A DNA stretch of 64,000 bases. Source: Elusimicrobiota bacterium. GTDB taxonomy: Bacteria; Elusimicrobiota; UBA8919. Of this stretch, positions 4,582 through 58,208 are shown piece after piece. The notes beneath the pieces were generated by a model. The model saw nothing but the letters and a program-made list of their open reading frames with translations. It was not told where the DNA came from and made no database searches. A program made the position numbers and the translations under genes. The DNA lies in contig JBFLWK010000001.1 of NCBI GenBank assembly GCA_040757695.1, forward strand, positions 89,758-153,757, read 5' to 3'. Each line of letters opens with the position of its first letter. Position 1 is the stretch's first letter.

Positions 4582-4630
4582 TTCTACGAAACTTTAGTTT
4601 CGGTTATACCGCCACTAAAGTGGCGTAGAA
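4582..4630. repeat. Double-hairpin intergenic element TTCTACGAAACTTTAGTTTCGGTTATACCGCCACTAAAGTGGCGTAGAA (family copy 1), preceded by (ACGAAAAC)×3
   Basis: Outer stem TTCTACG/CGTAGAA; inner hairpins CGAAAC-TTTA-GTTTCG and GCCAC-TAAA-GTGGC. Confidence 0.7.
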
Positions 4631-4697
4631 AGTAGCCTTACTGATATCAATTCTATCTTTCTGTGATTCTGTACTTCAGTGGTAAATACTTTTATCG

Positions 4698-6804: not shown

Positions 6805-6899
6805 AATAACTTATAACCCATCACTCACATATTGAGATTTTTTATTCATTGTAAGTAATCGGTTATTAGTTATCACATTAACTGCCGGGTGTTCGGGTA

Positions 6900-7514
6900 T
6901 TAAAGCCGAAGGTTGTGGAAACGGTAGTAAAGGCAAGGTGATAAGGTGATAAGGTGATAAGGTGATAAGTAAAAACAAGGAAGTAAAACAACAAAACCTA
7001 AAAGAAGCAAGAATAGTTTTTCAAAAAATTTCTTTAAAACCGTAAATATAACTGCTAAATCTGCAATCTGCAATCTGCAATCTGCAATCTTCAAATAGTG
7101 TTTAGCCACTGTGAATAACTTCTGGAGCAAATTCACAACCAGGATTTGTGAATGAACCGGTGTATTGAATGTCAGTGTGATGAGTGAACTCAAAAAAAGC
7201 GTCCGAAGTCCGAGGCCGGGGATTCGAGACCTGTCATTCTGAGCCGAAGGCGAAGAATCTTGTGTGTTAACACCAGGATTCTTCACTTCGCTGACGCTCC
7301 GTTCAGAATGACAACCTTCTACTCGCAACTCGCTACTCGCTACTTGCTGGTTTTGGGTATCTCTTTCATCCAGACCGCTGTCCCAATTCTTGATTGCCTG
7401 TTTTACTTCATTAGGGCAATTGGGATTGATAGTATTTGCAAAACAAAAAGCACTCGCTAACCCTATTAAGAAAGCGGCAGAAACTATAATAATAATAATT
7501 TCTCGTTTTGACAT
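6900..7514 (-). CDS. Hypothetical small secreted/membrane protein. Only the N-terminal ~60-100 aa look genuine; the 3' part of the ORF runs through SSRs and an inverted-repeat element.
   Basis: N-terminus MSKREIIIIIVSAAFLIGLASAFCFANTINPNCPNEV looks like a signal/TM segment followed by a Cys-containing mature region. The downstream part of the ORF spans the palindromic element at ~7232-7313 and (aatctgc)n / (ggtgataa)n repeats, so the true stop is doubtful. Confidence 0.25.
   Translation of the reverse strand: MSKREIIIIIVSAAFLIGLASAFCFANTINPNCPNEVKQAIKNWDSGLDERDTQNQQVASSELRVEGCHSERSVSEVKNPGVNTQDSSPSAQNDRSRIPGLGLRTLFLSSLITLTFNTPVHSQILVVNLLQKLFTVAKHYLKIADCRLQIADLAVIFTVLKKFFEKLFLLLLGFVVLLPCFYLSPYHLITLSPCLYYRFHNLRL
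7057..7093. repeat. 5× AATCTGC heptanucleotide repeat, with 3× GGTGATAA octamer repeat at 6948-6971, in the 5' region ~150-290 nt upstream of the GT2 gene at 5776-6804
   Basis: ctgcaatctgcaatctgcaatctgcaatct; ggtgataaggtgataaggtgataagg. Confidence 0.8.
7232..7313. repeat. Large imperfect inverted repeat: TGTCATTCTGAGCCGAAGGCGAAGAATC ... GATTCTTCACTTCGCTGACGCTCCGTTCAGAATGACA
   Basis: The two arms share the termini TGTCATTCTGA and GAAGAATC in opposite orientation. A related element is at 40419-40495. Confidence 0.6.
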
Positions 7515-8036
7515 TTTTTGTTCAATCCTTTTTTTTCGGCAGTCAAGCCTCCAAAAATAGCAAATAGCTTCTGGCTTATAGCATATAGTTTTTATAGAAC
7601 TATTCTGCGAAACTTTACCCCGTATCTAATACGGGGCGATGCTAAAGCCTCGTAGAATAAAACCTTACCGAAATTGCAAACTGTTACAGAACCACATTTG
7701 CTATTTTCGTTTAACTATACTTACATCGGCTCGGTACTATGGTACTATAATTATAAAGAATTTTTTGAATTTTGTCAATTACTTTTTTTGTAGTTTCTGT
7801 AGTCAAAAAGAAAACAAGATAACACAGTCTGAAGCCTGCGGCTACCAACCAACAAGGTAGCCGCTCCGATAAATCGGAGCCGCAAAGGACGGTAGAAAGC
7901 TTTTAATTGAAATTTCTGGGTTAAAAAGAAGTGTAAGCACGAAACAAGCGAGCAACCACGAGCAGCAGTGTGTCTCCCGATATTCATCGGGTTCGCAATG
8001 ATACAGGAAATAGATGTCAACCAATTTTGTGGATAT

Positions 8037-8066
8037 CAAAAATGTAAGCATTTGCTTACATTTTTA
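8037..8066. repeat. Perfect palindrome AATGTAAGCATTTGCTTACATT (copy 1 of 3), immediately downstream of the dapF stop
   Basis: Identical 22-mer at ~8041-8062, ~8869-8890 and ~31695-31716; flanked here by A/T runs. Confidence 0.8.
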
Positions 8067-8077
8067 TTATTCTCTTT

Positions 8078-8854
8078 TTAAAGAATGTAATGGACTTTAC
8101 CTTCAAAAAAGGCAGTTCTGCCATTGTAATATATTTTTAACGTTTCACCGCCTTGAGTAAGCACATTGACCGGTGAACAGACATATTTTTTTAGGATAGA
8201 AATTATTGCTGAGGCAACGACACCTGTTCCACAGGCGAGTGTCTCGGCTTCCACACCGCGTTCATATGTTCTGATTTGCAATTTATTTCTGCTTAAAACT
8301 TTTACGAAATTAACATTTGTGCCTGATGGCTGAAATCTCTTGTGCCATCTGATAGCCCTGCCTAAATGTTCAACATCAACATTTTTAATATCTTTAACAA
8401 AAATTACTGTATGTGGCACGCCAGTATCGGCAAAAGATGCTTCAAACTTTTTGCCGGCTATTTTTAGCAAAAAATCTAACCCAAAATTTTTGGGTTCAGG
8501 CATCTTTATTTTTACAACTGATTTTTTTTTTACTTCGGCATTAATCAAACCAGCATCCGATTCAAAAACCATTTTTGCTGAAGAAATTTTATTAAGGTAT
8601 GCAAAAAGTGCTATACATCTGGCACCATTACCGCAAAAAGCAGCGTGACTACCATCAGAATTGTAATAAACCATTCTGAAATCAGTATTTCGGCGCAAAG
8701 ATTTTTCAACAAGCAAAAGCCCGTCTATATCTTCTCTGCGGCAGTATTTTTTTGCGAATACCGACGGATTGCTTACAAGTGGTTTTCTGTTATCAATCAC
8801 AATAAAATTATTACCGCTACCCGACATTTTTGTAAGATTCAAACTTTTTTTCAT
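8078..8854 (-). CDS. dapF: Diaminopimelate epimerase
   Basis: MSGSGNNFIVIDNR at the N-terminus; catalytic cysteines in FCGNGARC and LACGTG; 258 aa. Confidence 0.9.
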   Translation of the reverse strand: MKKSLNLTKMSGSGNNFIVIDNRKPLVSNPSVFAKKYCRREDIDGLLLVEKSLRRNTDFRMVYYNSDGSHAAFCGNGARCIALFAYLNKISSAKMVFESDAGLINAEVKKKSVVKIKMPEPKNFGLDFLLKIAGKKFEASFADTGVPHTVIFVKDIKNVDVEHLGRAIRWHKRFQPSGTNVNFVKVLSRNKLQIRTYERGVEAETLACGTGVVASAIISILKKYVCSPVNVLTQGGETLKIYYNGRTAFFEGKVHYIL

Positions 8855-8865
8855 ATTTGTCGTCT

Positions 8866-8890
8866 AAAAATGTAAGCATTTGCTTACATT
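8866..8890. repeat. Palindrome AATGTAAGCATTTGCTTACATT (copy 2) in the lysA–dapF junction, overlapping the lysA stop
   Basis: Exact match to copies 1 and 3. On the transcribed strand the hairpin is followed by TTTTTAGACG, so it could act as an attenuator/terminator or an operator. Confidence 0.8.
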
Positions 8891-10095
8891 CCAATTTTAT
8901 CGCGTTTTCTTAATACCTCCCACTTTTTTTCTTCAGCCAGTACTTCTACAAGATGGGGTCGCAGGTTATAATTTGACGACATTGAATACCCGTAGGCACC
9001 AGCGCATAAGATAGCAAGAAAATCATTTTCTAAAACCGGCGGTATTGTTCTATCTTTTGCAAAAATATCCGACGATTCGCAAACAGGTCCTACAATATCC
9101 CATTTATGTGTTGTCCCTTCTCTTCTTACAATCGGGATTATTTCGTGATATGCATTATACATCGCAGGACGGAGTAAATCATTCATTCCAGCATCAACTA
9201 TTAAAAAATTCTTTTTTGCTGTTTTTTTGATATAAATTATTCTTGTCACTAATATGCCGGATTCACCGACAATAAATCTGCCCGGTTCTAAAATAACGGT
9301 ACGCTTTGGGGGTAGGTTTGACATAATCGCATCTGCATAGTCCGTTGGATTGATTATTTTCTCATCCTTATATTTTATTCCAAGCCCACCACCCATATCA
9401 ATATATTTCAGTTTTATTCCGTCTTCTGAAAGTTTTTTAATATAGCATCCTACTTTTCGGGAGGCAAGCACAAACGAGTCTAAATCAGTTATTTGGGAAC
9501 CAATATGAATATGAAGTCCGACGATACTGATATTTTTAAGCGATTTTGCTAAAATATAGCCCTCTTTTGCTTCTTCAAATGAAAGTCCAAACTTGTTATG
9601 TAAAAGCCCTGTTGTAATATGCGGATGTGTTCTGGGATTTATATCCGGATTCACTCTGAACGAGATTCTCGCAATTCTGCCGACTGATTTTGCAATTTTG
9701 TTAATTTTGTATAATTCCGGAATAGATTCAACATTAAACATTAAAATATCCTGTTTGATTGCTTCTTTAATTTCATCATCTCTCTTCCCGACACCAGCAA
9801 ACACTATTTTTTGACAACTGATACCACATGATATTGCAAGTTTTAACTCGCCAGATGAAACAATATCACAACCACACCCGTTTTTAGCAAGAATTTTTAA
9901 TAGTTTCGGATTAGCGTTCGCCTTGACTGCATAGCATATAATATGTTTTGTTTTTGAGAATGCGATATCAAGCAGTTTATAATTTTCCAGAATTTTATTT
10001 TTGCTGTAAATATAAACTGGAGTGCCAACTTTATTTGCAATCTCTAAAACTGAAACACCATCCATCAATAACAAACCGTTTTCATACTTTAGCAT
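8884..10095 (-). CDS. lysA: Diaminopimelate decarboxylase
   Basis: PLP-fold motifs YAVKANANPKLLKILA, HIHIGSQ, EPGRFIVGESG, CESSD; 403 aa. Confidence 0.9.
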   Translation of the reverse strand: MLKYENGLLLMDGVSVLEIANKVGTPVYIYSKNKILENYKLLDIAFSKTKHIICYAVKANANPKLLKILAKNGCGCDIVSSGELKLAISCGISCQKIVFAGVGKRDDEIKEAIKQDILMFNVESIPELYKINKIAKSVGRIARISFRVNPDINPRTHPHITTGLLHNKFGLSFEEAKEGYILAKSLKNISIVGLHIHIGSQITDLDSFVLASRKVGCYIKKLSEDGIKLKYIDMGGGLGIKYKDEKIINPTDYADAIMSNLPPKRTVILEPGRFIVGESGILVTRIIYIKKTAKKNFLIVDAGMNDLLRPAMYNAYHEIIPIVRREGTTHKWDIVGPVCESSDIFAKDRTIPPVLENDFLAILCAGAYGYSMSSNYNLRPHLVEVLAEEKKWEVLRKRDKIGM

Positions 10096-10139
10096 ATTTA
10101 TCCTTTTTAAGTTAGTCAGGGCTTCGCCCTGAAACCTGT

Positions 10140-10285
10140 TTTTGACTAGATTAACAGGATTTTATTTTTTGCTACTGAATTTCACTGAAATATTTTCAAA
10201 TCTAAATTCTGTGTATTTCTGTGTGATTCTGTGGCTTGTGTATTTCTGTGGCTGTCTTTTTATCCTGTAAATCCTGTCAGAATCT
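10140..10285. promoter_or_regulatory. Second occurrence of the ATCCTGTAAATCCTGTCAGAA motif (plus ttgactagattaacaggatt) in the lysA 5' region
   Basis: ...ctttttatcctgtaaatcctgtcagaatcttttt...; 19/19 identical to the 2262-2280 copy. Confidence 0.5.
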
Positions 10286-10462
10286 TTTTTTGCCGACTGA
10301 AGTCGGGTATAAATCTTTTTTTCAGTGTTTTCAGTGGTTCCGTGGTGAAAAGAACCAAAACGGTGATTAAAAATCACCGACTACAATTCATACGTTTTCA
10401 GCAAAATTGAACTGTTACCACTGATTAGCATGTTGGTTTTATCTGTGTAATAGAGAAATTTG

Positions 10463-11341
10463 TCATTCAATATATTTCTGTAAAGCAATTGCAAGTTTTT
10501 TAGAAAGCGTGTTTTCTTCGGTATTTAACAAAACTGCCAGATTTTTTTTAGCTTCTGCGATATTATTCTTTTTTAGATAAGTTAGTGCAACTAAAAAATG
10601 CGCATTCACCGCTGTAAAGTTAGAAATTGCGATATCTGGATTTTTTTTCATATTAATATATCCTTCTAAAATTCGGGAATCAAACGATGTAGTAAAAAAT
10701 GGTTCTGATTCAGCATATTTACCAGTTAAAACATTCAACTGTAAAATACTGTTTTTTATACTATCGGTTGGACATAGTGCCAGCGCCCTTTTGTATAAAT
10801 CAATAGCTTCGTTATCTCGCCCGGTATTTTTATAAATAACCGCAAGCCCGTTTAATGCTTCAATACTGCTGTTATCAAGTTGCAGTACTTTTTTATAGTA
10901 TTCTTCTGCCTTTTCGTATAGCAATTTTTTATAATAAACCGCACCCAGCCCGAGATAAATCCGTATATCTTTTGAGCCGTATTTTAATGCTTTATTATAT
11001 TCAAAAATCGCTTCATTATGCATATCAGCACCGCGATATGCCTCCCCTAATTTTAGAAGGACAACCGGGTTTTTTTTCTTAATTTTTTTGGCATCAGTAT
11101 AAAATGTAATTGCATAACTGTACTCGCCACGCATTAAATACTCATCACCTTTAGAGATATAGAATCTAATTTTTTCTTTTTTTGATTCTGCATATAAAAA
11201 GATGGAAAGATAGAAAGATAGAAAGATGGAAAGATAGAGAGATGGAAAGATAGAAAGATGGAAAGATAGAAAGGAAAATCTATTGCCCAACCACCTAGCC
11301 ATCTTACCATCTATCCATCTATTAGAATAGTATTTTTTCAT
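10463..11341 (-). CDS. TPR-repeat protein with a repeat-encoded hydrophobic N-terminus
   Basis: Several TPR-like segments (AITFYTDAKKI..., LYEKAEEYYKKVLQLD...). The N-terminal FSFLSFHLSIFPSLYLSIFLSFYLSIFLY is encoded by 8-nt tandem repeats (agatRgaa)n at ~11199-11275. Confidence 0.5.
   Translation of the reverse strand: MKKYYSNRWIDGKMARWLGNRFSFLSFHLSIFPSLYLSIFLSFYLSIFLYAESKKEKIRFYISKGDEYLMRGEYSYAITFYTDAKKIKKKNPVVLLKLGEAYRGADMHNEAIFEYNKALKYGSKDIRIYLGLGAVYYKKLLYEKAEEYYKKVLQLDNSSIEALNGLAVIYKNTGRDNEAIDLYKRALALCPTDSIKNSILQLNVLTGKYAESEPFFTTSFDSRILEGYINMKKNPDIAISNFTAVNAHFLVALTYLKKNNIAEAKKNLAVLLNTEENTLSKKLAIALQKYIE
11199..11275. repeat. Tandem octanucleotide repeats (AGATAGAA/AGATGGAA, ~9 units) inside the 5' coding end of the TPR gene
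   Basis: Read directly from the sequence. The unit length is not a multiple of 3 and gives an 8-aa periodic hydrophobic peptide. Confidence 0.8.
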
Positions 11342-12294
11342 TTTAGAAATACTATTTTATCAATAAACTTTTCAAGTATTTTATCTTTGATAGCATTCGC
11401 CTTACTTCTTGTGGCAACAAGCCCTGCCTCTATACATTCTGCTGACCTGTCAAGTTCTATCATACTCACATTTTTTATATTCGGTATTATTACAAAATCG
11501 GCATTTTTTATCTGATTAGATACCAGGAATCCAGCTTGAATATTTATCGCCTGAATGAGTGTTTTCATAACATTATCTATATTAAATAATGAATAATCTA
11601 CCTGTGGCCAGACAGCAATTACAAAATCGGCAGCCATTACTTTTGCGATATCAATCGGTAGATTATCAACCAACCCGCCGTCTACAAGCAGCCGATGTCG
11701 GTATTCAACCGGCTTAAAGAGACCCGGGATTATTGCAGAAGCACGCATTGCAAATGCTGCCTCGCCTTCCTTAAAAACGATTCGTTCACCAGTTTTTATA
11801 TCACAGGCGATACAGGCAAACGAAATTTTTAACTCGTCAAACCTTTTTTGCCTGATATGTTTTTCCAGATATTTTTCAAGTTTTTCTGTGCTTAACAGCG
11901 ATTCCGCAGTAATAAGTGTTAGCAGTTTAGTTGCTGAAAGATTTGATATTTTATTCCAGCCAATATCAGTCCCTATCCGTTCTATATCAGTTATCGCCAT
12001 ACCTGTCGCATAGAGCCCGCCAACAAGCGCACCGGCACTGGTACCAACAATAATATCAGTCGGTATATTATTTTCTTGAAGCACCTTTAAGACGCCGATA
12101 TGACTCAGACCTCGTGCGCCGCCACCACCTAATACTACCGCGATTTTAGGCCGCTTAGAGTTCAATGCTAAAAAATCTTTCCATAATAAATCTCTTAATA
12201 AATTATCAGATTGAGCATAAAGGCAGGTAAAAGGTAAAAGGTAAAAGGTAAAAAGTAAAAGGTAAAATCTCAAACTGCGAAGAACAGGATACAT
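11338..12294 (-). CDS. Patatin-like phospholipase
   Basis: GGGARG oxyanion motif, GTSAGA (GxSxG nucleophile elbow), DGGLVDN (catalytic Asp). The signal peptide RFYLLLFTFYLLPFTCLYAQ is encoded by heptamer repeats. Confidence 0.8.
   Translation of the reverse strand: MYPVLRSLRFYLLLFTFYLLPFTCLYAQSDNLLRDLLWKDFLALNSKRPKIAVVLGGGGARGLSHIGVLKVLQENNIPTDIIVGTSAGALVGGLYATGMAITDIERIGTDIGWNKISNLSATKLLTLITAESLLSTEKLEKYLEKHIRQKRFDELKISFACIACDIKTGERIVFKEGEAAFAMRASAIIPGLFKPVEYRHRLLVDGGLVDNLPIDIAKVMAADFVIAVWPQVDYSLFNIDNVMKTLIQAINIQAGFLVSNQIKNADFVIIPNIKNVSMIELDRSAECIEAGLVATRSKANAIKDKILEKFIDKIVFLK
12226..12268. repeat. 6× GGTAAAA heptanucleotide tandem repeat (coding strand TTTTACC) encoding FYLLPFT in the signal peptide of the patatin gene
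   Basis: ggtaaaaggtaaaaggtaaaaggtaaaaagtaaaaggtaaaa. The 7-nt unit is in frame only in multiples of three units. Confidence 0.85.
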
Positions 12295-12297: not shown

Positions 12298-13593
12298 TTA
12301 TTCAATAATTTTGCCGATACTGGTTTCTAAATTGATTTTTGCGATTATAACATCTTTCAATGCATCAATATATTCAAGTTGGATATTCATCGCTGTCTCT
12401 AACATTTCAATAAACTCAAGATATGTAAGTTCTTTTAATACCTCATCTGTTACAGTTGTAGCAAGTTGTTCTTTTTCGTTAGTTTTTTGTTCAAACTTTT
12501 TAACTGCAAACTCGTAATCAACAAAACATTTTCTTACCTCGGCCTGGATTGAGTCGGTAATACTTGCTCGGTTAATCTGTGTTTTTCTATATTGGTACTT
12601 TTTTTGTTTTATTCGGGCAAACTGACCAAAACCATCAAATATCGGTAGTGTAAAATTTATAGTTGCATTCCACGCTCTTTTTTCAAATGGCAACTGTCTA
12701 TCTTCAAGTTGATAGTTGCCACCGAGTGTAATTATAGGATACCTGCCGGATAATGATAGGTTTACTGAAAGCGCATCCATCTGTTCCTGAAGTTGCGTTT
12801 TTTTAAGTTCAGGCCGATATTCAAGCGCCCAGGCAATGCATTTATTGAGGTCTACCACAGCCTTTTTGTGCTCTAACTCGCCTTTGATTGTGAATATCGT
12901 ATTTAACTCTATCCCGATAGAATCAAGAAAATCAATTTCTGCCAGTTCCAGTTCTTTCTGGTTTTTGGTTTCTGCTGATTTTATTTTTTCAATTTTTTTT
13001 TCAGATATAAATCTGTCTTTAGGGTTTAAAGACTCATTTTTTCTATTTGATATTTTTTCAATAGTTGCTTTATAAATCTCAACTTTTTTCTGGATTGATA
13101 GAAGTGTATAGAAATTTTTTTTAGCCGATGAGCCTGTTTTGTTTTTGATTACCTCGTAATCACTTTCAGCCGATTTCAATTCTGTTTCTGCAAACTTCTT
13201 TGTAGCAGAAATTTTGGCACCACTCCATAATATCTGATAGAGCGAAATTTTGGCTGTATAATAATCTTCAATGTTATCAACCAGTGGCTCAATTTTTTGT
13301 GGCAGGATAGTGTTGCCCAAAATAGGCGAAATCAACAGCGGGCTTTCGGCTTTGAATTTGGAATAGTTGGCGTTGAACTCCAATTGCGGATACATTATTG
13401 ACCGCGCTTCTTTCAGCCGTTGTCTGGCAATCTCTATATCCTGTCGGGCGGATAGAAGTTGCTGGTTGTTTGAAATCGCAAGATTAACACTATCGTCAAC
13501 TGTTAAAACTCTTTCTACAAGTTGCTGGGAATAGAGACAGGTAAAAGGTAAAAGGTAAAAGGTAAAAGGTAAAAGGTAAAAAAATTTTTTCAT
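12298..13593 (-). CDS. TolC-like outer membrane efflux protein (OEP family)
   Basis: Signal peptide, then a TolC-type N-terminus LTVDDSVNLAISNNQQLLSARQDIEIARQRLKEARSIMYPQLEFNANYSK; two-repeat coiled-coil architecture; 431 aa. Confidence 0.65.
   Translation of the reverse strand: MKKFFYLLPFTFYLLPFTCLYSQQLVERVLTVDDSVNLAISNNQQLLSARQDIEIARQRLKEARSIMYPQLEFNANYSKFKAESPLLISPILGNTILPQKIEPLVDNIEDYYTAKISLYQILWSGAKISATKKFAETELKSAESDYEVIKNKTGSSAKKNFYTLLSIQKKVEIYKATIEKISNRKNESLNPKDRFISEKKIEKIKSAETKNQKELELAEIDFLDSIGIELNTIFTIKGELEHKKAVVDLNKCIAWALEYRPELKKTQLQEQMDALSVNLSLSGRYPIITLGGNYQLEDRQLPFEKRAWNATINFTLPIFDGFGQFARIKQKKYQYRKTQINRASITDSIQAEVRKCFVDYEFAVKKFEQKTNEKEQLATTVTDEVLKELTYLEFIEMLETAMNIQLEYIDALKDVIIAKINLETSIGKIIE
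13540..13581. repeat. 6× GGTAAAA heptanucleotide repeat encoding FYLLPFTFYLLPFT in the TolC-like signal peptide
   Basis: Near-identical ~50-nt cassette (acag + 6 units + aaaaattttttCAT) to those at 12226 and 20440. Confidence 0.85.
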
Positions 13594-14939
13594 AATCTTT
13601 TAAGTTGCTGTTTTACAGATGATAGCGATGTGCCGCCGTAGGATTTTCTTTTTTCAACAGATTTCCTGAAGTTTAACATATCAAAAACTGACCTGTCAAA
13701 TTTTTCAGAAAATTTTTTCCATTCTGTAATTGATAAGTCATCAAACTTTTTCTGGTTTTTTATACAATAATCCACAAGTTTAGCAACAATACTATGCGAT
13801 GTTCTAAACGGAAGCCCTTTGCAAACAAGATAATCAGCAATATCAGTCGCAAGAATAAAGCCATTCTTACAGGCAGAAAGCATTCTGTCAGGGTTAAGTT
13901 TCATTTCTGAAACCATTCCCGCACAAATATCAAGTATATTTTCTATTGTCTCAGCAGACGAAAAAAGCGGTTCCTTATCTTCCTGCATATCCCTGTTGTA
14001 AGATAACGGAAGCCCTTTCATAACGGTTAAAAACGAAATTAAATTACCGTAAATTCTGCCTGTTTTTGCTCTCACAAGTTCTGCAAAATCCGGGTTTTGT
14101 TTCTGCGGCATCACAGATGAACCTGTTGTAAATTTTGCTGAAAGTTTTATAAATCCAAACTGCTGTGAAGACCATATAACAATTTCTTCAGCAAGCCGTG
14201 AGCAATGCATTGACACTACTGCGCAATCAAACAAAAACTCAATTATGAAATCTCTATCAGCAACGGCATCCACAGAGTTTTCTGAAATTTTTGAGAATCC
14301 TAACTGGCTGGCAACAAAATTTCTGTCAATATTGAACTCTGTTCCTGCAAACGCTGCAGAACCTAACGGACAGATATCAATCCTTTTATAGCAGTCATAA
14401 AACCGTTCTTTATCCCGTTTTAACATCCACACATATGCGAGAAACCAGTGACTGAATAATACCGCCTGTGCATTTTGCAGATGTGTAAATCCGGGCATAA
14501 TTATATTTAAATTTTTTTGAGCAATTTTTTTGAGCATACTGATTGCCTTATCTATTTTTTCAATAATTATCTTTATCTCGTCTTTCAAATAAAGCCGTTC
14601 ATCAAGCGCCACCTGGTCATTTCTGCTTCTTGCAGTATGCATTTTGCCAGCAACATTACCGATTCTTTTTTTGAGTTCTACCTCTATTGAAGTATGAATA
14701 TCTTCATCAGTAAATCTTAATTTACCAGCATTGAAATCTTTCAAGATTGAGTTAAGCCCGTTGATAATTTTTGTGGCTTCTTTTTGTGTAACAATTTTGC
14801 ATTTAGCAAGCATTTTTACATGCGCAATGCTCCCTAAAATATCATACTTCGCAAGTTTTACATCGTAAGAAATTGATGAGACAAACTTTTTTAGTTCCAT
14901 AATACCTGTTAACAGCAAATTCCAAATTCTAAATTCCAA
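13590..14939 (-). CDS. argH: Argininosuccinate lyase
   Basis: Fumarate-lyase signature GSSVMPQKQNPD; SRNDQV; 449 aa; adjacent to argG. Confidence 0.85.
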   Translation of the reverse strand: MEFRIWNLLLTGIMELKKFVSSISYDVKLAKYDILGSIAHVKMLAKCKIVTQKEATKIINGLNSILKDFNAGKLRFTDEDIHTSIEVELKKRIGNVAGKMHTARSRNDQVALDERLYLKDEIKIIIEKIDKAISMLKKIAQKNLNIIMPGFTHLQNAQAVLFSHWFLAYVWMLKRDKERFYDCYKRIDICPLGSAAFAGTEFNIDRNFVASQLGFSKISENSVDAVADRDFIIEFLFDCAVVSMHCSRLAEEIVIWSSQQFGFIKLSAKFTTGSSVMPQKQNPDFAELVRAKTGRIYGNLISFLTVMKGLPLSYNRDMQEDKEPLFSSAETIENILDICAGMVSEMKLNPDRMLSACKNGFILATDIADYLVCKGLPFRTSHSIVAKLVDYCIKNQKKFDDLSITEWKKFSEKFDRSVFDMLNFRKSVEKRKSYGGTSLSSVKQQLKRL

Positions 14940-14971
14940 GTTGACCCGAACAAGTTCGCAACTCCAGTAGC

Positions 14972-15018
14972 CTACCCCTTAAGGGGTAGGCTACATTGGA
15001 ATCCTCAACTTGTTGAGG
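14972..15018. other. Two consecutive perfect hairpins in the argG–argH spacer (12-bp stem GTAGCCTACCCC/GGGGTAGGCTAC, then CCTCAAC/GTTGAGG)
   Basis: Read from the sequence. Neither has a strong U-tract on the transcribed strand, so this is an attenuator, RNA-processing element or REP-like element rather than a classic terminator. Confidence 0.6.
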
Positions 15019-25777: not shown

Positions 25778-27363
25778 CGTATCTCGTAAATTGTAAATTT
25801 TTCTACCGGTATTCTTGAGAATGAATACGGCAGTAGCCCATACATATTTAAGTGAAAACCTGCCTGTGCTAACGGACTCATCGTTTTGAATGGATTCTTC
25901 GTTAGTATATACTTTTGTTCAACAAGTTTTAATCTTTTAACAATCACAGGATGAATTTTCTGCGGAACTGGTAAAACAGGGCAGACAATCAAAGAACCAC
26001 TCGCATAATTCTTACTGTCTGATTCTACCGCATAAAATCCATTTCTTTCCATATAATACTGAAACCCAAGATGTCCTGTAAAATAGACACTTTTGTCAGC
26101 GTATCCTTTTTTGATATATTCTGAAATGTTTCTATATGAATTGGCTAAAATATAATCTGATTGTGCAATCAAAAACGATAAAATAAGCCCGATAATAACC
26201 GTGGTAATCAAAAATATTTTATGTTTTAGGCATATGTCTGAAATTTTTACAAAAAGCAAAATTACAGGCGGCAAAAGTGGTAACAGATACCTGACTGCGA
26301 TTATTGCTGAAACTGCTACAAAAAAAAATAGATACAAAAAAAACCAGCTCACCAGAAAAATTATTTCTTTTTGATAATCCCATTTTTTAAGCGAGCGAAT
26401 AAAAACAAAAAACAAAAGAATTGCTGACGAGCTAAAAAGTCCAAAAAGAAAATTTTGTAGTTTAGTGTATCCAAGTAAATCAAAAAAAAAGGTTCCTGTT
26501 GCAAAAACTACTAAAAAAAGCCAGACAGCACTTTTTTTTAACTGGTAACCTAACCATAATATACTCAATGGAAAAACAAAAGCACCACCAATATAAGTAA
26601 GTAGTGGGATTTCTTTTACAAGCCCAAAAGAGATACCAATACTGACTGATTTTTTCAGAATCTGGAGTTCGTTATAAACAAATTTGTTATGTAATGACCA
26701 TGCAACTAAAAAAAGAATCGGAATTATAAAAAAACCGATATTTTTTTTCAGGGTTTTATTCAGCAGAAACCAAACAAAAAGCAGTCCGAGATTTATTAAT
26801 GCTACAAATTTTATTAAAATTGTAAACCCGAGCAGGAGCCAGCCTAAATATTTTTCACGAATACAAAAATAAATTCCCCATACTGAAAATGTAATCAGCG
26901 GTACATCCAGCATTATATCGGTTGCATTTACAAAAAACGCAGGACTTGCTATCAAAAGAAGCGCAGAAAAAAGTGGATCTGTTTTCAACTTTCTCGCCAA
27001 AAAATACATACCCACAACGGAAAGTATCGCAAAACAAAGAAATGCCAAATGCAGTGCTTTTTCATTTTCGCCGAAAATTTTTATAACACCTGCCAGAAAA
27101 TACGATATAAGCGGAGGATTATTAGCAACATCCCATCCTGAATAATTTTTGTCAGCACAATTTATTGTGAAACTAAACGGTTTTGCTGGCTCCTTTAGAA
27201 TCTGCCTGGCAGTGTAAATATAAAATATAGCATCAGAAGAAATTGCTTTATTATAAAATGGGAATAAAAGCAAAAATGTTAAAAAGCAGAGAAATCTGAT
27301 TTCCGAACATTTGTTCGGTTTTGTATTTCCGAACATTTGTTCGGTTTTATTTGAAATGGTCAT
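25774..27363 (-). CDS. GT-C family glycosyltransferase, ArnT/PMT-like; start uncertain
   Basis: DAIFYIYTARQI...NPPLISYFLAG (KPPL-like motif), at least 11 TM helices. Its first ~20 codons contain two CGAACATTTGTTCG palindromes and overlap the thiL stop. Confidence 0.55.
   Translation of the reverse strand: MTISNKTEQMFGNTKPNKCSEIRFLCFLTFLLLFPFYNKAISSDAIFYIYTARQILKEPAKPFSFTINCADKNYSGWDVANNPPLISYFLAGVIKIFGENEKALHLAFLCFAILSVVGMYFLARKLKTDPLFSALLLIASPAFFVNATDIMLDVPLITFSVWGIYFCIREKYLGWLLLGFTILIKFVALINLGLLFVWFLLNKTLKKNIGFFIIPILFLVAWSLHNKFVYNELQILKKSVSIGISFGLVKEIPLLTYIGGAFVFPLSILWLGYQLKKSAVWLFLVVFATGTFFFDLLGYTKLQNFLFGLFSSSAILLFFVFIRSLKKWDYQKEIIFLVSWFFLYLFFFVAVSAIIAVRYLLPLLPPVILLFVKISDICLKHKIFLITTVIIGLILSFLIAQSDYILANSYRNISEYIKKGYADKSVYFTGHLGFQYYMERNGFYAVESDSKNYASGSLIVCPVLPVPQKIHPVIVKRLKLVEQKYILTKNPFKTMSPLAQAGFHLNMYGLLPYSFSRIPVEKFTIYEIR
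27303..27344. promoter_or_regulatory. Tandem pair of Cheo-box-like palindromes CCGAACATTTGTTCGG (CGAAC-N4-GTTCG), 26 nt apart, directly after the thiL stop and at the 5' end of the GT-C gene
   Basis: Read from the sequence: tttccgaacatttgttcggttttgtatttccgaacatttgttcggtttt. It matches the LexA/DinR operator consensus CGAACRNRYGTTCG of Firmicutes-type SOS boxes. Confidence 0.55.
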
Positions 27364-30631: not shown

Positions 30632-31597
30632 TCATTGCGGACAGGAGTGCATTAATTTGTGAATATAATTTTTAATTTCTTTAACTGCAGCAGGGTGGTT
30701 CATAACGAGAATATCGCTGCCGGCTTGAATATACCCGCAGGCAGTTATGATTTCCCAGTTAATACCTCTTGTTTCAAGATTTCCCCACTCGGGCTTTTCG
30801 GTTTCGTCTGCTTTACATTCTTTAGTTTTCCATGTTTCCTGACCAATGAATGTAATTACTGGTTGTGCCATCATTTTGTCATTCACAAGTGCAGCAAGCC
30901 GTGTTCGTTCAATTATAGAATAGCAGTACTCAAACCCGTAACCAAGTCCACCCGTTGAAGGATGAATAACAATTCTGTCTGCTGAAAATCCTATATCGGT
31001 AATCAAAATATTTAACTGTTTTTCAAGATTTATATCAAGCGGTGTCTCTGCAATTAAAGAATGTCCACCTGCCTGCGCAGCGGCAACGAATGTTTTATGA
31101 TTTTCTTTGGTTGCCATACCGAACAAGCAGTTTTCACCTTTTGCTGCCTGGCTTATATCCATAATAATCAACGAGTCTTTCTCATTATTCCCACAGCCGA
31201 CGATTATTAAAGGAACCGAAGTAACAGCCAAAACATCTTTTACTGTTTTTGCTACTTCAGATGCATCCGCGTTTTTACCGTCTGGGTTTGCACTTTCTAA
31301 TCGCAAACATATCAAATCAGCACCGAGTTGCTCGCATTTTTTAGCCCACTGTACTGGATTTTCCAAAACATCACCATACTCATTTTTAAGAATATCAGGC
31401 CAATCAGTTGGCTCAACATCCCAGACCTCCATAGCAACTGCAGGTAGATTAGGGATTTGTCCTTCAAAAAAAAGGAACGGCAGTGTATTGCTACCACCTA
31501 TTTTGATTTTTTTAGTCCGTGTTCCACCTTCCTCTTTTATAGCGCCGATTGTCAGTTCATAAATTTTTCCTTGCCATTTTTCAAGAACCTGCTCCAT
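30632..31597 (-). CDS. acsD: Corrinoid iron-sulfur protein small subunit (CODH/ACS delta subunit)
   Basis: TIM-barrel AcsD/CdhD-like: WQGKIYELTIGA...GGTRTKKIKIGGSNTLPFLFFEG...AVAMEVWDVEP...VPLIIVGCG; 321 aa. Confidence 0.7.
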   Translation of the reverse strand: MEQVLEKWQGKIYELTIGAIKEEGGTRTKKIKIGGSNTLPFLFFEGQIPNLPAVAMEVWDVEPTDWPDILKNEYGDVLENPVQWAKKCEQLGADLICLRLESANPDGKNADASEVAKTVKDVLAVTSVPLIIVGCGNNEKDSLIIMDISQAAKGENCLFGMATKENHKTFVAAAQAGGHSLIAETPLDINLEKQLNILITDIGFSADRIVIHPSTGGLGYGFEYCYSIIERTRLAALVNDKMMAQPVITFIGQETWKTKECKADETEKPEWGNLETRGINWEIITACGYIQAGSDILVMNHPAAVKEIKNYIHKLMHSCPQ

Positions 31598-31694
31598 TGT
31601 AACTCCTGATATAACAGTAAATTCTAAATCCTAAATTTCAATTAGACCATTTGGGCTAATTGAAAAATCAAAAATTACCGACGACCAATATTCA

Positions 31695-31716
31695 AATGTA
31701 AGCATTTGCTTACATT
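31695..31716. repeat. Palindrome AATGTAAGCATTTGCTTACATT (copy 3), ~100 nt upstream of the acsD start
   Basis: Exact 22-mer identical to copies flanking dapF. Confidence 0.8.
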
Positions 31717-33820: not shown

Positions 33821-33866
33821 GGTATTCAATACCAAAACTTTTTGAATTCTTGTAATTCGGCAATTT

Positions 33867-36539: not shown

Positions 36540-37843
36540 ACAGTTTTCAGATATTTTGGAATACCTGACGCTTCCTTAGGCCCAACCAGAACCTGCCAGC
36601 CGGTAGTATCTTCCAATTTCCCGCTCATCACGGAGACATATCCGGGAATGATTATTTTTTTATGTGAGACCTTACTTGCAATTTCCGTTTTTTTCATCCA
36701 GGTATCAACTATTTCAGCATTAAACTTATCCGCAGCCCAAGCAGTTAAAACAGACATACCATCGGAATCACAGACCAGAAGCCACGCAGGCATTTTTGAG
36801 TTTTCTACTTCAGGCACGACGGTAAAAAATGTTAACGAAAAGTTTGTTGTAACTAAAAAAGGTGATTGAGCATCAGGTGTGCCAATGGTATAAAGTTTGG
36901 GCTCCATCATTATAGGTTTCTGCGGGTCAGTATAGATATTAAGCCGAAGTGTAATCAACGGCAGGATATCTTCAACTTTATCGGTTTCTACAACAAGTAT
37001 GTTCGCATATTTTGTAATATATGTTGACGCTTCAAATATATCTTTGGCAAATGCAAGGACAGGATAGCCAAGCGGTCTAAAATTCTTTTTTAGTGCCAGC
37101 CGTCTGATTTGTGTAAAATCCTGCACACATTTTGATAGTTCCCGAGAACCGCAATCAAGCACAATATCTTTAATACCTGATGAAGATGCCTTTTGAGAAA
37201 GTGAAACAAGTTTTTCAATATTTTCTCCATATACGCAAATCGGTACTTTATACTTTTTTGCCAATCCGAACATTTGTTCGGATTGCTTTTCAGTTGCACA
37301 ATAAATCAGTGGTTTTTTTTGAGAAATATTTTTCAGCACCTCATCTATTGCCGTCGGATTTTCACTAATAAGAATTAAAGGCAATTTTATTTTATCAGAA
37401 AGTTCTTTTGATATATCTGCGAATTTTGATATATCATTTGAAACATTTTTAACCGCAACAAGGTCTATGCTAACCAGCATTCCAACTCTTTCAAACTGAA
37501 GTTTTTTTATTTTTTCTATTTTAGTTGAAAGATTGGGCTCGTTATCGGCGACAGATACAGCAATCGCTGTTGGATGATAGAATGTTTTTTCATGACGGAA
37601 AAGCACTGTCTCGCCACCGATTTCTACTTTTTTTTCACCTTCGCCAATTGTGATTGTTGCCATTGGTGGAAGCGATGCGGACTCTAAAAGTTGTTTTGCC
37701 TGTTCAGTTACATCCGGACATTTATCCAGCGTAGTTTTTTTTCCAGCGAGTGCCATTGCAAATGCCAGACAGGTAGGGAATCCACATTTTTTACAATTTG
37801 TTTTTGGCAGATGTTTGTAAATATCAAGCCCTGAAAGCGCCAT
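36530..37843 (-). CDS. acsC: Corrinoid iron-sulfur protein large subunit (CODH/ACS gamma subunit)
   Basis: N-terminal [4Fe-4S] motif CKKCGFPTCLAFAMALAGKKTTLDKC; TIM-barrel and C-terminal B12-binding Rossmann region; 437 aa. Confidence 0.75.
   Translation of the reverse strand: MALSGLDIYKHLPKTNCKKCGFPTCLAFAMALAGKKTTLDKCPDVTEQAKQLLESASLPPMATITIGEGEKKVEIGGETVLFRHEKTFYHPTAIAVSVADNEPNLSTKIEKIKKLQFERVGMLVSIDLVAVKNVSNDISKFADISKELSDKIKLPLILISENPTAIDEVLKNISQKKPLIYCATEKQSEQMFGLAKKYKVPICVYGENIEKLVSLSQKASSSGIKDIVLDCGSRELSKCVQDFTQIRRLALKKNFRPLGYPVLAFAKDIFEASTYITKYANILVVETDKVEDILPLITLRLNIYTDPQKPIMMEPKLYTIGTPDAQSPFLVTTNFSLTFFTVVPEVENSKMPAWLLVCDSDGMSVLTAWAADKFNAEIVDTWMKKTEIASKVSHKKIIIPGYVSVMSGKLEDTTGWQVLVGPKEASGIPKYLKTVWK
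37263..37284. promoter_or_regulatory. Single 22-nt palindrome AATCCGAACATTTGTTCGGATT (Cheo-box-like core) inside acsC coding sequence
   Basis: Read from the sequence; it encodes ...SEQMFGL in frame. Confidence 0.4.
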
Positions 37844-57188: not shown

Positions 57189-58208
57189 TTATTTGAGGAA
57201 AGTCAACAAAGAATTGTATAAAAGCGGGAGCATAATTTCATGGTGACCGATAAAGTAAAAACCGCTATTCCCAGATGGACGGGATACGACATTTTCAAAA
57301 GCACGATACTGATAATTCATATCAAAATTGGCAGCGGTAAAATTTTTTACTTTATACCCAAGATTTCTTGCAAGATTAAGCGCCTTAAGAAAAACTTCAG
57401 GTAAAATTACTGCAGAACCGAAATTTAAAATAACACCACCTTCAAGTTTTGAGATAACTTCAGAAAATTTCAGAAAATCGGTGTATGATGTCTTGCCCCA
57501 AGAGGCACCATCGCATTCAGGATGCTGGTAAATTACATCCGTGCCTATCCCAATATGAACAGTTGCTGGAATTTTTAATTTATATGCGTTTGCAAAAATG
57601 CTGAACTCTGAAAATTTTAATTTTTTTTCAGAAACCATTTTTCCAATACTTTCGCCAAGCCCGAGATTTTTTTCGGCACCGCTTTTTACCGTTTCATTTA
57701 GAAACTTGCCCGTCTCAAAAGCCATACCAAATTTTCCAGTTTTTAATTGTTTAACAACATCTTCGGATGTTTTTCCACAAAAGGCAAGTTCAAAATCGTG
57801 AATAACCGAAGCACCATTTGTTGCAATTGCTGTAACAATTTTTCTTTTCATCATATCAATAACAATACAGGAAAGCCCACATTTTATTATATGTGCTCCA
57901 AACATAAAAATTACTGGTTTTCTGTTTTTTCTTGCTGTAAATATCCTTTTTACAAGTTCTCTAAAGTTTTTACCTGCTAAAATATCGGGCAGCAAATTAA
58001 AAAAATCGTTCTTGAACAATTGTCTAGTGCGAACATTTGTTCGCAGCGAACATTTGTTCGCCTTCGCAAACATATCTATCTGCACTTTGCTTTTTCTTTT
58101 CACCAATGGGTATCTTTTTACATTTCTAAGGTTTAACATTTTTGCCCTCCCAAAATATTTGGAACCACAGATTCCCGCCTGAGGCGGATCCGCCTTTGGC
58201 GGAAACAC
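57189..58208 (-). CDS. Hypothetical protein, tentatively deoxyhypusine-synthase-like fold. The true start is probably the internal Met (MFAKANK..., ~58073).
   Basis: Weak resemblance to the DHS NAD-binding core (IFMFGAHII...GLSCIVIDMM...VTAIATNGASVIHDFE; GGVILNFGSAV). The 5' region carries two GCGAACATTTGTTCGC palindromes. Confidence 0.3.
   Translation of the reverse strand: MFPPKADPPQAGICGSKYFGRAKMLNLRNVKRYPLVKRKSKVQIDMFAKANKCSLRTNVRTRQLFKNDFFNLLPDILAGKNFRELVKRIFTARKNRKPVIFMFGAHIIKCGLSCIVIDMMKRKIVTAIATNGASVIHDFELAFCGKTSEDVVKQLKTGKFGMAFETGKFLNETVKSGAEKNLGLGESIGKMVSEKKLKFSEFSIFANAYKLKIPATVHIGIGTDVIYQHPECDGASWGKTSYTDFLKFSEVISKLEGGVILNFGSAVILPEVFLKALNLARNLGYKVKNFTAANFDMNYQYRAFENVVSRPSGNSGFYFIGHHEIMLPLLYNSLLTFLK
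58029..58061. promoter_or_regulatory. Tandem pair of Cheo-box-like palindromes GCGAACATTTGTTCGC (17 nt apart) at the 5' end of the DHS-like gene
   Basis: tgcgaacatttgttcgcagcgaacatttgttcgcc. Same core as 27303-27344 and 37265-37282. Confidence 0.55.

What the first reader, a model, noticed from the sequence alone, without database searches (positions are those of the whole stretch)
8037..8890. A 22-nt perfect palindrome brackets dapF on both sides
AATGTAAGCATTTGCTTACATT occurs at ~8041-8062, just after the dapF stop, and at ~8869-8890, in the lysA-dapF junction overlapping the lysA stop. A third identical copy is at 31695-31716. Exact 22-mers do not recur by chance. Copy 2 is followed by UUUUUAG on the mRNA and could attenuate lysA-to-dapF read-through. 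The bracketing geometry also fits an operator pair for a dimeric regulator, or REP-type elements.
Basis: seen in the sequence. Interest (0 to 1): 0.5.

Follow-up and report, generated by a model that had tools for sequence, protein, structure and literature searches.

The report
Operator-like box bracketing dapF
The 22-base near-palindrome on both sides of dapF is one copy-type of a small family of invariant boxes in groundwater Elusimicrobiota that most likely serve as binding sites for tiny LexA-like (DNA-binding-domain-only) proteins, an apparently undescribed regulator/operator set.

Summary
The three exact copies exist at the stated coordinates (0.01 expected by chance). The sequence is not a perfect palindrome: it has 10-bp arms around a non-symmetric TT. 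It is not a REP. Species-representative MAGs carry 1-5 exact copies, and 148 kb of related DNA holds 25 exact copies and none with 1-3 mismatches. In-gene copies are length-neutral substitutions. Relatives that keep lysA-dapF synteny lack the box.

In sister Elusimicrobiota genomes the same box brackets a 70-79 aa gene that consists only of the LexA DNA-binding domain. A 57%-identical homolog in another genome is bracketed by a different 22-mer of the same architecture (AAT-N5-C-AAWT-G-N5'-ATT). The window's own assembly encodes at least four such proteins. The window holds five boxes of this architecture (0.03 expected).

Best reading (about 0.5): operators for these "mini-LexA" proteins, acting at cistron boundaries. 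Copy 1 probably also terminates dapF. The identity to the Pseudomonas GacA box upstream of rsmY looks convergent. Binding has not been tested, and the cognate protein for this box in this genome is not identified.

The parts
8041..8062 (.). Box A copy 1. It lies 16 nt after the dapF stop. With its A5/T5 flanks it forms a 12-13 bp stem (8038-8065).
   Evidence: Exact match. The sense-strand RNA fold is -16.1 kcal/mol with z -6.1 and is followed by UUUUUGAU. The terminator scan lists it.
8869..8890 (.). Box A copy 2, in the lysA-dapF junction. It supplies the last Met codon and the TAA stop of lysA and ends 15 nt before the dapF ATG.
   Evidence: The LysA C-terminus (RKRDKIGM*) has the same length as in relatives (RKRENLSF*, RQREKMSF*), so the box overwrites sequence rather than adding it. 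Fold -11.7 kcal/mol.
31695..31716 (.). Box A copy 3. It sits in the 294-nt spacer between the RACo gene and acsD/cdhD, 98 nt upstream of the acsD ATG.
31640..31661 (.). Box C-like 22-mer AATTAGACCATTTGGGCTAATT. It has the same architecture with one arm mismatch, lies 43 nt upstream of the acsD ATG, and is 55 bp (start to start) from copy 3.
   Evidence: Architecture scan. It resembles box C at L067 1557.
37263..37284 (.). Box D AATCCGAACATTTGTTCGGATT. It has the same architecture with a GAAC-N4-GTTC (LexA/Cheo-type) core and lies inside acsC.
8078..8854 (-). dapF (diaminopimelate epimerase), the cistron bracketed by copies 1 and 2.
   Evidence: ORF. It is 100% identical to NCBI MEW6555755.1 and matches PF01678.
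8884..10095 (-). lysA (diaminopimelate decarboxylase). Its stop codon lies inside copy 2.
   Evidence: ORF. Orthologs carry Orn_DAP_Arg_deC domains in syntenic loci.
30632..31597 (-). acsD/cdhD (corrinoid Fe-S protein small subunit), downstream of copy 3 and the box C-like site.
   Evidence: PF03599.
27303..27344 (.). Two tandem CCGAACATTTGTTCGG boxes, 26 bp apart, with the same core and centre as box D.
58028..58061 (.). Two abutting GCGAACATTTGTTCGC boxes.

Best explanation
The 22-mer (sense strand AATGTAAGC-AAAT-GCTTACATT) is most likely a DNA operator. It is a LexA-box-like dyad with core AAGC-N4-GCTT, compared with the Gram-positive SOS box GAAC-N4-GTTC. The proposed binder is a dimer of a small stand-alone LexA-N-terminal-domain winged-helix protein ('mini-LexA', 63-88 aa, ending right after the wing and lacking the cleavage/dimerisation domain).

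Groundwater Elusimicrobiota carry several paralogs of these proteins and several box types that share the frame AAT-N5-C-AAWT-G-N5'-ATT. In two independent cases the mini-LexA gene sits inside a biosynthetic operon and is bracketed by its own box type. Solitary copies of the same box lie at other cistron boundaries and occasionally inside genes.

In the window, a protein bound at copy 2 would sit on the lysA stop, 15 nt before the dapF ATG. It would act as a roadblock or occluder that uncouples dapF from lysA. Copy 1 marks the end of the dapF cistron, and its transcript hairpin with a U tract probably also terminates transcription. Copy 3, together with a neighbouring box of another type, lies in the acsD upstream region.

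Shown here: the sequence family, its invariance, its placement, the gene-box association, and the presence of four paralogs in this assembly. Inferred: that the protein binds the box, which paralog does so here, and the roadblock mechanism.
For: (1) Gene-box linkage. In JACRDL01 (L002), in Hainich contigs (L085/L088) and in GCA_017973875 (L106-108), a 70-79 aa gene matching PF01726 LexA_DNA_bind (E 3.7e-13) lies between moaC and a MOSC gene. An exact box A overlaps its start. A second exact box A lies 4 nt after its stop and 9 nt before the next ATG.

(2) Co-variation. The homolog P0272 (57% identical in alignment A1) lies between ispA and dxs. It is bracketed by a different 22-mer of the same architecture, AATTAGAGCAATTGCTCTAATT. 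A copy with 3 mismatches overlaps its ATG, an exact copy contains its TAG stop, and a third exact copy lies 5.4 kb away.

(3) Purifying selection, tested without ascertainment by the box. L106 was retrieved through the protein. Compared with L002, its box positions are 44/44 identical while the rest of the segment is 82.6% identical.

(4) The protein family matches LexA residues about 2-70 in PDB entries 1LEA and 3JSO (E about 1e-11). Every named close member is from an Elusimicrobia MAG.

(5) The window's assembly (DapF MEW6555755.1) encodes four paralogs in the same accession and locus-tag series: MEW6555927, MEW6555930, MEW6556413 and MEW6556416 (AB1349_). Two of them share the helix-3 motif KYFKF(S/A)SRNTAHY with the box-A-linked protein, which has KYFRFSSSRTAHY.

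(6) The window has 5 boxes of this architecture against 0.03 expected.

(7) Copy number is low: 5 and 1 exact copies in two species-representative MAGs. The pattern is all-or-none: 25 exact copies and 0 with 1-3 mismatches in 148 kb.

(8) In-gene copies are gap-free substitutions in glyQ, rnfC and an FAD oxidase. In the FAD oxidase the box grew out of an ancestral CKxML motif. This is how operators evolve, not how mobile DNA inserts.
Against: No binding data exist.

No close ortholog (over 90% identity) of the box-A-linked protein is annotated in the window's assembly. The same holds for JBBAAR01, which still has one box. The cognate binder here is therefore a guess among paralogs that are 50-61% identical.

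The co-variation rests on only two gene-box pairs.

Exact 22-bp conservation of every position, including the asymmetric centre, is more than a helix-turn-helix dimer usually needs.

The loop reads AAAU on the sense strand in 12 of 14 distinct sites. The background expectation is about 0.6, giving p about 0.04. This hints at a strand-specific (RNA or single-stranded DNA) component.

Many sites lie 3-15 nt before a start codon inside operons, where no promoter is evident. Classical promoter-operator repression therefore does not apply.

In this genome, unique perfect palindromes also occupy other cistron junctions.
Confidence: 0.5

Rival explanations
1. The primary function is at the RNA level. 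The transcript hairpin (9-13 bp stem, AAAU loop) would act as an intrinsic terminator or attenuator, or as a 5'/3' protective stem-loop. It would define and stabilise individual cistrons (dapF here) cut out of long operons. It could also occlude the translation-start region of the next gene.
For: The hairpins fold better than shuffles (z -6.1, -3.7 and -2.9). Copies 1 and 2 are followed by U runs on the sense strand. Sites concentrate at cistron boundaries. Orientation is biased towards AAAU on the mRNA, 12 of 14. Cistrons bracketed on both sides recur: dapF and two mini-LexA genes.
Against: A structural hairpin does not need an invariant sequence, yet no compensatory variants exist. Most family members lack a U tract. 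Five sites lie inside coding sequence, where termination would be harmful. Relatives have no hairpin of this kind at the lysA-dapF junction. The box type changes together with the neighbouring DNA-binding protein.
Confidence: 0.2
2. A selfish or mobile short palindrome, analogous to REP/REPIN. The box-gene-box module would be the autonomous unit and the solitary boxes its dispersed derivatives, spread by some copying or gene-conversion process rather than kept for host regulation.
For: The logic is the same as for REP-RAYT: a gene flanked by its own palindrome type, and different types in different lineages. The modules interrupt otherwise conserved operons, moaC-MOSC and ispA-dxs. Presence at intergenic sites differs between relatives. 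Copies 1 and 2 share 25 nt. Copies are identical rather than degenerate.
Against: The protein has no catalytic domain (63-88 aa, wHTH only). There are only 1-5 copies per representative genome. There are no target-site duplications. Coding copies are gap-free substitutions, not insertions. Orthologous sites are conserved across species whose flanks have diverged to about 83%.
Confidence: 0.15
3. An upstream activating site for a GacA/UvrY-like (NarL/FixJ-family) response regulator, as in gamma-proteobacteria where the identical 20-mer precedes rsmY.
For: The 20-mer ATGTAAGCATTTGCTTACAT is exactly the box centred 67.5 bp upstream of rsmY in about 45 Pseudomonas species. It also occurs in Acinetobacter, Psychrobacter, Alcanivorax and Vreelandella, and downstream of rpoS (the position of rsmZ). 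It fits the published consensus TGTAAGN6CTTACA (PMC3171408). Gac regulons also have few, near-perfect sites.
Against: The window contains no Rfam sRNA. The sites sit in cistron junctions and coding regions, not about 70 bp upstream of sRNA genes. The same 20-mer also occurs in unrelated settings: between two P450 genes near a TetR-like gene in Umezawaea, and at the apex of a long hairpin in a Lachnospiraceae MAG. About one chance match is expected in 596 Gb, so convergence is plausible.
Confidence: 0.05

Closest known systems
LexA repressor and its SOS box (Gram-positive 'Cheo' box CGAAC-N4-GTTCG)
   Same: The associated proteins match Pfam LexA_DNA_bind and align to LexA residues about 2-70. 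The box is a dyad with a 4-nt AT centre, and its core AAGC-N4-GCTT is one step from GAAC-N4-GTTC. Sister boxes in the same window have the GAAC-N4-GTTC core itself. The regulator gene carries its own box, as lexA does.
   Different: The proteins lack the S24 self-cleavage/dimerisation domain, so there is no RecA-triggered induction. Each genome has several paralogs with different box types. The boxes are 22 bp and invariant. They lie at cistron junctions of biosynthetic and cofactor genes, not in promoters of DNA-repair genes.
GacA/UvrY box upstream of rsmY/rsmZ/csrB (TGTAAGN6CTTACA)
   Same: It is identical over 20 nt to the Pseudomonas rsmY box. Both have few near-perfect copies per genome.
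   Different: There is no adjacent sRNA gene, no detected NarL-type regulator, and a different placement. This is most likely convergence on a common helix-turn-helix half-site.
REP/REPIN elements with their RAYT transposase
   Same: Both are short palindromes at operon junctions and gene ends. In both, a protein gene is flanked by its own palindrome type and the type differs between lineages.
   Different: REPs occur in tens to hundreds of degenerate copies and are extragenic. RAYT is a catalytic HUH enzyme. Here there are 1-5 invariant copies, some inside genes without indels, and the protein is a bare DNA-binding domain.
Stand-alone LexA-DNA-binding-domain repressors of temperate phages (for example the protein annotated 'LexA DNA-binding domain protein' in Bacillus phage 11143)
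   Same: Both are small proteins consisting of the LexA winged-helix domain only. tblastn identities are 38-52%.
   Different: The phage proteins sit in phage immunity regions. The proteins here are chromosomal, multi-paralog, embedded in housekeeping operons, and have dispersed cognate boxes.
parS/ParB-type sites
   Same: Both are a handful of invariant palindromes per genome, found in coding and non-coding DNA and conserved across species.
   Different: The sequence is unrelated. The one weak match to canonical parS in the window (2 mismatches) is no more than chance gives. The sites are enriched at cistron boundaries, and the associated protein is LexA-like, not ParB-like.

Membership tests
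LexA-type operator (dyad bound by a LexA_DNA_bind winged-helix protein) | An inverted-repeat dyad with two short half-sites around a short AT-rich spacer | tested here: met
   10-bp arms around TT, with core AAGC-N4-GCTT. This matches the geometry of CGAAC-N4-GTTCG boxes in the same window.
LexA-type operator (dyad bound by a LexA_DNA_bind winged-helix protein) | A LexA_DNA_bind-domain protein is encoded in the same genome | tested here: met
   Four 77-aa PF01726 proteins (MEW6555927, MEW6555930, MEW6556413, MEW6556416) lie in the same accession and locus-tag series as the window's DapF MEW6555755. None is encoded in the window itself.
LexA-type operator (dyad bound by a LexA_DNA_bind winged-helix protein) | The regulator gene carries its own operator, and the box type tracks the protein subfamily | tested here: met
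   Met in sister genomes. Box A flanks the P0273/P0001 gene (L002, L088, L106). Box B flanks the P0272 gene (L109-114). It could not be tested for the four paralogs of the window's assembly, because no DNA was obtainable.
LexA-type operator (dyad bound by a LexA_DNA_bind winged-helix protein) | Direct, sequence-specific binding of the protein to the box | not testable with these tools
   Needs EMSA, DAP-seq or ChIP.
Canonical LexA/SOS regulon | The repressor has a C-terminal S24 peptidase domain for RecA-stimulated self-cleavage | tested here: not met
   The proteins are 63-88 aa and end after the wing (..ARG(I/L)KL). Only PF01726 is detected.
Canonical LexA/SOS regulon | Boxes lie in promoters of DNA-damage genes (recA, uvrA, lexA and others) | tested here: not met
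   The neighbours are lysA/dapF, acsD and RACo in the window. Elsewhere they are moaA/moaC/MOSC, cbiM, rpiB, bioY, glyQ, rnfC and dxs.
GacA/UvrY box | Matches TGTAAGN6CTTACA | tested here: met
   TGTAAG-CATTTG-CTTACA. It is identical to the Pseudomonas rsmY box.
GacA/UvrY box | Lies about 60-80 bp upstream of a Csr/Rsm-type sRNA gene | tested here: not met
   No Rfam family matches in the window. The boxes overlap stop codons or lie 15-98 nt before protein start codons.
GacA/UvrY box | A cognate NarL/FixJ-family response regulator is present | tested here: inconclusive
The rest of the genome was not searched.
REP/BIME element | Tens to hundreds of degenerate copies per genome, all extragenic | tested here: not met
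   Two representative MAGs have 5 and 1 exact copies. There are no 1-3-mismatch variants in 148 kb. Five of 14 distinct sites lie inside coding sequence, and two more overlap the 3' end of a gene.
MITE or other inserted mobile DNA | An insertion relative to orthologs, flanked by target-site duplications | tested here: not met
   The glyQ, rnfC and FAD-oxidase copies align gap-free to solved homologs. The LysA length is unchanged. No direct repeats flank the box.
Intrinsic terminator | A stable stem-loop followed directly by a U tract at the end of a transcription unit | tested here: inconclusive
   Copy 1 fits: a 12-13 bp stem and U5, followed by 1.2 kb of non-coding DNA and a new promoter. 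Copy 2 fits weakly. Copy 3 and most copies in other genomes have no U tract.

The most novel reading that the evidence does not exclude
Elusimicrobiota may use a multi-paralog set of domain-minimal LexA proteins, each with its own invariant 22-bp box. These would mark and gate individual cistrons inside long operons, giving box-gene-box 'insulated' cistrons such as dapF here. The box-gene-box modules may themselves spread as a new kind of non-catalytic selfish operator-repressor unit. Its solitary boxes would be written into the genome, including coding sequence, by substitution or gene conversion rather than by insertion.
Probability: 0.15. Interest if true: 0.8.

Novelty: new variant of a known kind. 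Interest (0 to 1): 0.55.

Why it matters
If the model holds, a poorly studied, uncultivated phylum regulates housekeeping operons at the level of single cistrons. The operons concerned include lysine/DAP synthesis, Wood-Ljungdahl, molybdenum cofactor, isoprenoid, and cobalt and biotin uptake. The regulators would be a private family of truncated LexA proteins that escaped the SOS circuit.

This would give a ready-made, orthogonal set of very small repressor-operator pairs (about 75 aa and 22 bp) with readable specificity positions. It would also be a clean natural case of paralog and operator co-diversification.

There is a cautionary point as well. An exact 20-mer match to a famous operator (the GacA box) across phyla can be convergent.

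Tried and rejected
- GacA-box homology. I followed this until the same 20-mer turned up in unrelated contexts (Umezawaea P450/TetR, a Lachnospiraceae long hairpin), and no sRNA or NarL-type HTH was found.
- DNA-uptake-sequence idea. Isolated half-sites are not enriched: TGTAAGC has 6 and GCTTACA has 1 occurrence outside the boxes on the + strand. My own estimate from base composition is about 3.8 each.
- parS, Ter and recombination-site ideas. The only canonical-parS match in the window is weak (2 mismatches) and no more than chance gives. No recombinase is nearby. dapF was next to lysA before the boxes arose, so dapF is not an inserted cassette.
- Terminator as a family-wide function. Most copies lack U tracts.
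- Insertion or MITE. PDB alignments show no indels.
- Search for the binder in the window. Both tblastn and a family HMM over all six frames were negative.
- Extending the window or fetching the contigs that carry the four paralog genes. 
- Viral scans of the box and of the CGAAC box gave nothing useful.
- Orientation bias. It is real but weak once the background excess of CATTTG over CAAATG on this strand (37 against 19) is taken into account.
Full report
**Observation**

The 22-mer AATGTAAGCATTTGCTTACATT occurs exactly three times, at 8041-8062, 8869-8890 and 31695-31716. All three have ATTT on the + strand. No other match exists at up to three mismatches, and shuffles give 0.01 expected matches.

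dapF is 8078-8854 (-) and lysA is 8884-10095 (-). Copy 1 starts 16 nt after the dapF stop. Copy 2 contains the lysA TAA and ends 15 nt before the dapF ATG, and UUUUUAG follows it on the sense strand. Copy 3 lies in the spacer between the RACo gene (31892-33916) and acsD/cdhD (30632-31597), 98 nt before the acsD ATG.

The sequence is not a perfect palindrome. Its reverse complement differs at the two central bases, so it has 10-bp arms around TT. Copies 1 and 2 share 25 nt. Nearly all genes of the window are on the minus strand.

**Source**

The window's DapF is 100% identical to MEW6555755.1 of an Elusimicrobiota MAG, on a 155-kb contig. The window has 35% G+C.

**Distribution elsewhere**

An exact scan of one genome per species for the inner 20-mer gave 68 loci. 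Most are gamma-proteobacteria. In Pseudomonas the 20-mer is centred 67.5 bp upstream of rsmY (Rfam RF00195; flanks). In another gamma-proteobacterial locus it follows rpoS, where rsmZ lies. This is the published GacA/UvrY box TGTAAGN6CTTACA (PMC3171408).

The remaining hits are:
- Elusimicrobia MAGs: JACRDL01 with 5 copies and JBBAAR01 with 1 copy.
- A Lachnospiraceae MAG, where the 20-mer is the apex of an imperfect hairpin of about 190 nt.
- An actinobacterium (Umezawaea), where it sits between two P450 genes near a TetR-like gene.

A metagenome scan for the 22-mer added low-GC groundwater contigs, mostly from Hainich well H41.

About one chance match is expected for a 20-mer in 596 Gb, and palindromes are over-represented in real genomes. 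I therefore read the GacA-box identity as convergence on a common helix-turn-helix half-site, not as homology.

**Properties of the Elusimicrobia copies**

- *All-or-none conservation.* In 148 kb (the window plus the loci) there are 25 exact 20-mers and none with 1-3 mismatches. The flanks are unrelated immediately outside the 22 nt.
- *Low copy number.* This rules out a classical REP.
- *Placement.* There are fourteen distinct sites. Seven are purely intergenic, nearly all at cistron boundaries and often within 0-15 nt of a stop or start codon. Seven overlap coding sequence: five lie inside genes (glyQ, rnfC, an FAD oxidase, a PMT-like gene, MOSC) and two overlap a gene's 3' end (lysA, bioY).
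- *Length-neutral coding copies.*
  - glyQ ECKHLLT aligns gap-free to 5F5W ESKRMVE.
  - rnfC CKQMLT aligns gap-free to 7ZC6.
  - The FAD-oxidase ECKQMLTS aligns to human D2HGDH TCKGMLGE, so there the box grew out of an ancestral CKxML motif.
  - LysA ends RKRDKIGM* in the window and RKRENLSF* or RQREKMSF* in relatives, which is the same length.
- *Relatives lack it.* Four relatives with 71-77% DapF identity keep the argG-argH-OEP-patatin-TPR-(MFS)-lysA-dapF synteny. None has a box at the junction or after dapF. There, lysA and dapF either overlap by 19 nt or are separated by 46-90 nt carrying other repeats.
- *Orientation.* The loop reads AAAU on the sense strand in 12 of 14 sites. The + strand of the window already favours CATTTG over CAAATG by 37 to 19, so the bias is only marginal (my estimate, p about 0.04).

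**The link to a protein**

In JACRDL01 (L002), box A lies immediately after moaC and overlaps the start of a small gene. A second box A lies 4 nt after that gene's stop and 9 nt before the next (MOSC) gene. The small gene is a bare LexA DNA-binding domain (PF01726, E 3.7e-13).

The same arrangement, with a third box inside MOSC, occurs in Hainich contigs (L085/L088). It also occurs in GCA_017973875 and two other samples (L106-108). Those three loci were retrieved through the protein, not through the box. Between L002 and L106 the two boxes are 44/44 identical while the rest of the segment is 82.6% identical. The boxes are therefore under constraint.

A full HMMER search showed a family of 60-88-aa proteins of this kind. 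All named close members come from Elusimicrobia MAGs. The family aligns to LexA residues about 2-70 (PDB 1LEA and 3JSO, E about 1e-11) and ends right after the wing.

A homolog 57% identical in the family alignment (P0272) lies between ispA and dxs. It is bracketed by a different 22-mer, AATTAGAGCAATTGCTCTAATT:
- A copy with 3 mismatches overlaps its ATG.
- An exact copy contains its TAG stop and ends 3 nt before the dxs ATG.
- A third exact copy lies 5.4 kb away in another intergenic spacer.

Box A and box B share the frame AAT-N5-C-AAWT-G-N5'-ATT and differ in the arms. A change in the protein thus goes with a change in the box.

**Back in the window**

A scan for that frame, allowing at most one arm mismatch, finds five sites against 0.03 expected:
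- The three box A copies.
- A box C-like site at 31640-31661, 43 nt before the acsD ATG and 55 bp from copy 3.
- AATCCGAACATTTGTTCGGATT at 37263, inside acsC.

The core of the 37263 site is the Gram-positive LexA box GAAC-N4-GTTC. Four more exact CGAACATTTGTTCG boxes occur as two tandem pairs, at 27303/27329 and 58028/58046.

No family member is encoded in the window. The same assembly, however, encodes four 77-aa paralogs: MEW6555927, MEW6555930, MEW6556413 and MEW6556416 (locus tags AB1349_01060, AB1349_01075 and AB1349_03575 are on record for three of them). Their accession and locus-tag numbering is continuous with DapF. Two of them carry KYFKF(S/A)SRNTAHY where the box-A-linked protein has KYFRFSSSRTAHY. 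JACRDL01 also has a second paralog, MBI5574251.

**Interpretation**

The best-supported reading is that box A is an operator for one of these mini-LexA proteins, and that it belongs to a set of paralogous protein-box pairs.

The positions argue for a roadblock or occlusion mode at cistron boundaries rather than classical promoter repression. The boxes sit on stop codons, a few nucleotides before start codons, and inside operons with no room for a promoter. This step is inferred.

Copy 1 additionally looks like the dapF terminator. It has a 12-13 bp stem with its A/T flanks, folds at -16.1 kcal/mol with z -6.1, and is followed by U5. Downstream lie 1.2 kb of non-coding DNA and a perfect sigma-70-type promoter at 7778-7750.

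It is not a conserved property of this operon.

**What remains open**

- Binding has not been tested.
- The co-variation rests on two gene-box pairs.
- The window's assembly has no annotated close ortholog of the box-A-linked protein.
- Invariance of all 22 positions and the weak strand bias leave room for an RNA or single-strand component.
- The way box-gene-box modules interrupt conserved operons leaves room for a selfish element.
- I could not fetch the contigs that carry the four paralog genes, which would be the most direct check.

Noticed in passing
window 27303-27344, 58028-58061, 37263-37284: There are five exact CGAACATTTGTTCG boxes (LexA/Cheo-box consensus), all with ATTT on the + strand: two tandem pairs and one inside acsC. 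The neighbouring genes are not obvious SOS genes (a PMT_2 glycosyltransferase, a deoxyhypusine-synthase-like protein, acsC).
   Followed up: partly
window 12228-12274, 13528-13588, 20428-20488: Heptanucleotide tandem repeats (GGTAAAA)n on the + strand encode the repeated FYLLPFTFYLLPFT stretch in the N-terminal, signal-like regions of three different minus-strand ORFs.
   Followed up: no
window 7058-7094 and 47908-47939; 11186-11289; L002 7470-7500; L106 MOSC gene: More short tandem repeats occur. (AATCTGC)n appears at two distant sites in inverted orientation. An 8-nt AGATAGAA/AGATGGAA array lies inside an ORF. In-frame heptamer arrays (AGTCCGA)4 and (CCACTTC)4 lie in a variable loop of the MOSC gene of sister genomes, and one of these positions is where another genome carries box A.
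   Followed up: partly
window 14909-14942, 30574-30607, 31611-31644: AATTTAG-like repeat tracts lie directly upstream of three start codons (argH, an OmpA-family gene, acsD). They may be a shared 5'-UTR or promoter element.
   Followed up: no
window 4605-4631, 47159-47185, 54391-54417: A hairpin family TATAC-CGCCAC-TAAA-GTGGCG-TAGAA has compensatory arm changes between copies (CGCCAC/GTGGCG, TGCCAC/GTGGCA, CGACGC/GCGTTG). Each copy lies in an intergenic spacer, about 40-85 nt upstream of a minus-strand start codon. No Rfam match was found.
   Followed up: no
window 6805-8040: This 1.2-kb stretch has no convincing gene. It holds a 12/12 sigma-70-type promoter (7778-7750, minus strand). It also holds a possible small secreted-protein ORF from 7514 and a copy of the widespread metagenomic repeat GTCATTCTGAACGGAGCG...GAAGAATCC (about 7310-7270). 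The same kind of repeat fills the lysA-dapF junction in relatives L091 and L093.
   Followed up: partly
window 14967-14994, 55448-55467, 56185-56216: Unique long perfect palindromes (28, 20 and 32 bp) sit at other cistron junctions. Junction palindromes are therefore a general habit of this genome.
   Followed up: no
window 10096-10462: Relatives have an MFS transporter gene between the TPR gene and lysA. Here only about 370 nt of non-coding DNA remains.
   Followed up: no
L044 7540-7770 (Lachnospiraceae MAG): An imperfect inverted repeat of about 190 nt has the same 20-mer at its apex. It is not matched by any Rfam family.
   Followed up: partly
L067 913-2274 (JACRDL01): In a nikR, secreted 216-aa protein, cbiM cluster, the middle gene is bracketed by box C (19 nt before its ATG) and box A (6 nt after its stop).
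   Followed up: partly
Pseudomonas loci L001-L066: The GacA box upstream of rsmY is embedded in a longer palindrome. Its outer arms differ between species but stay complementary, and its central ATTT/AAAT is flipped in about a quarter of species. This suggests the box doubles as the terminator hairpin of the upstream acyl-CoA dehydrogenase gene.
   Followed up: no
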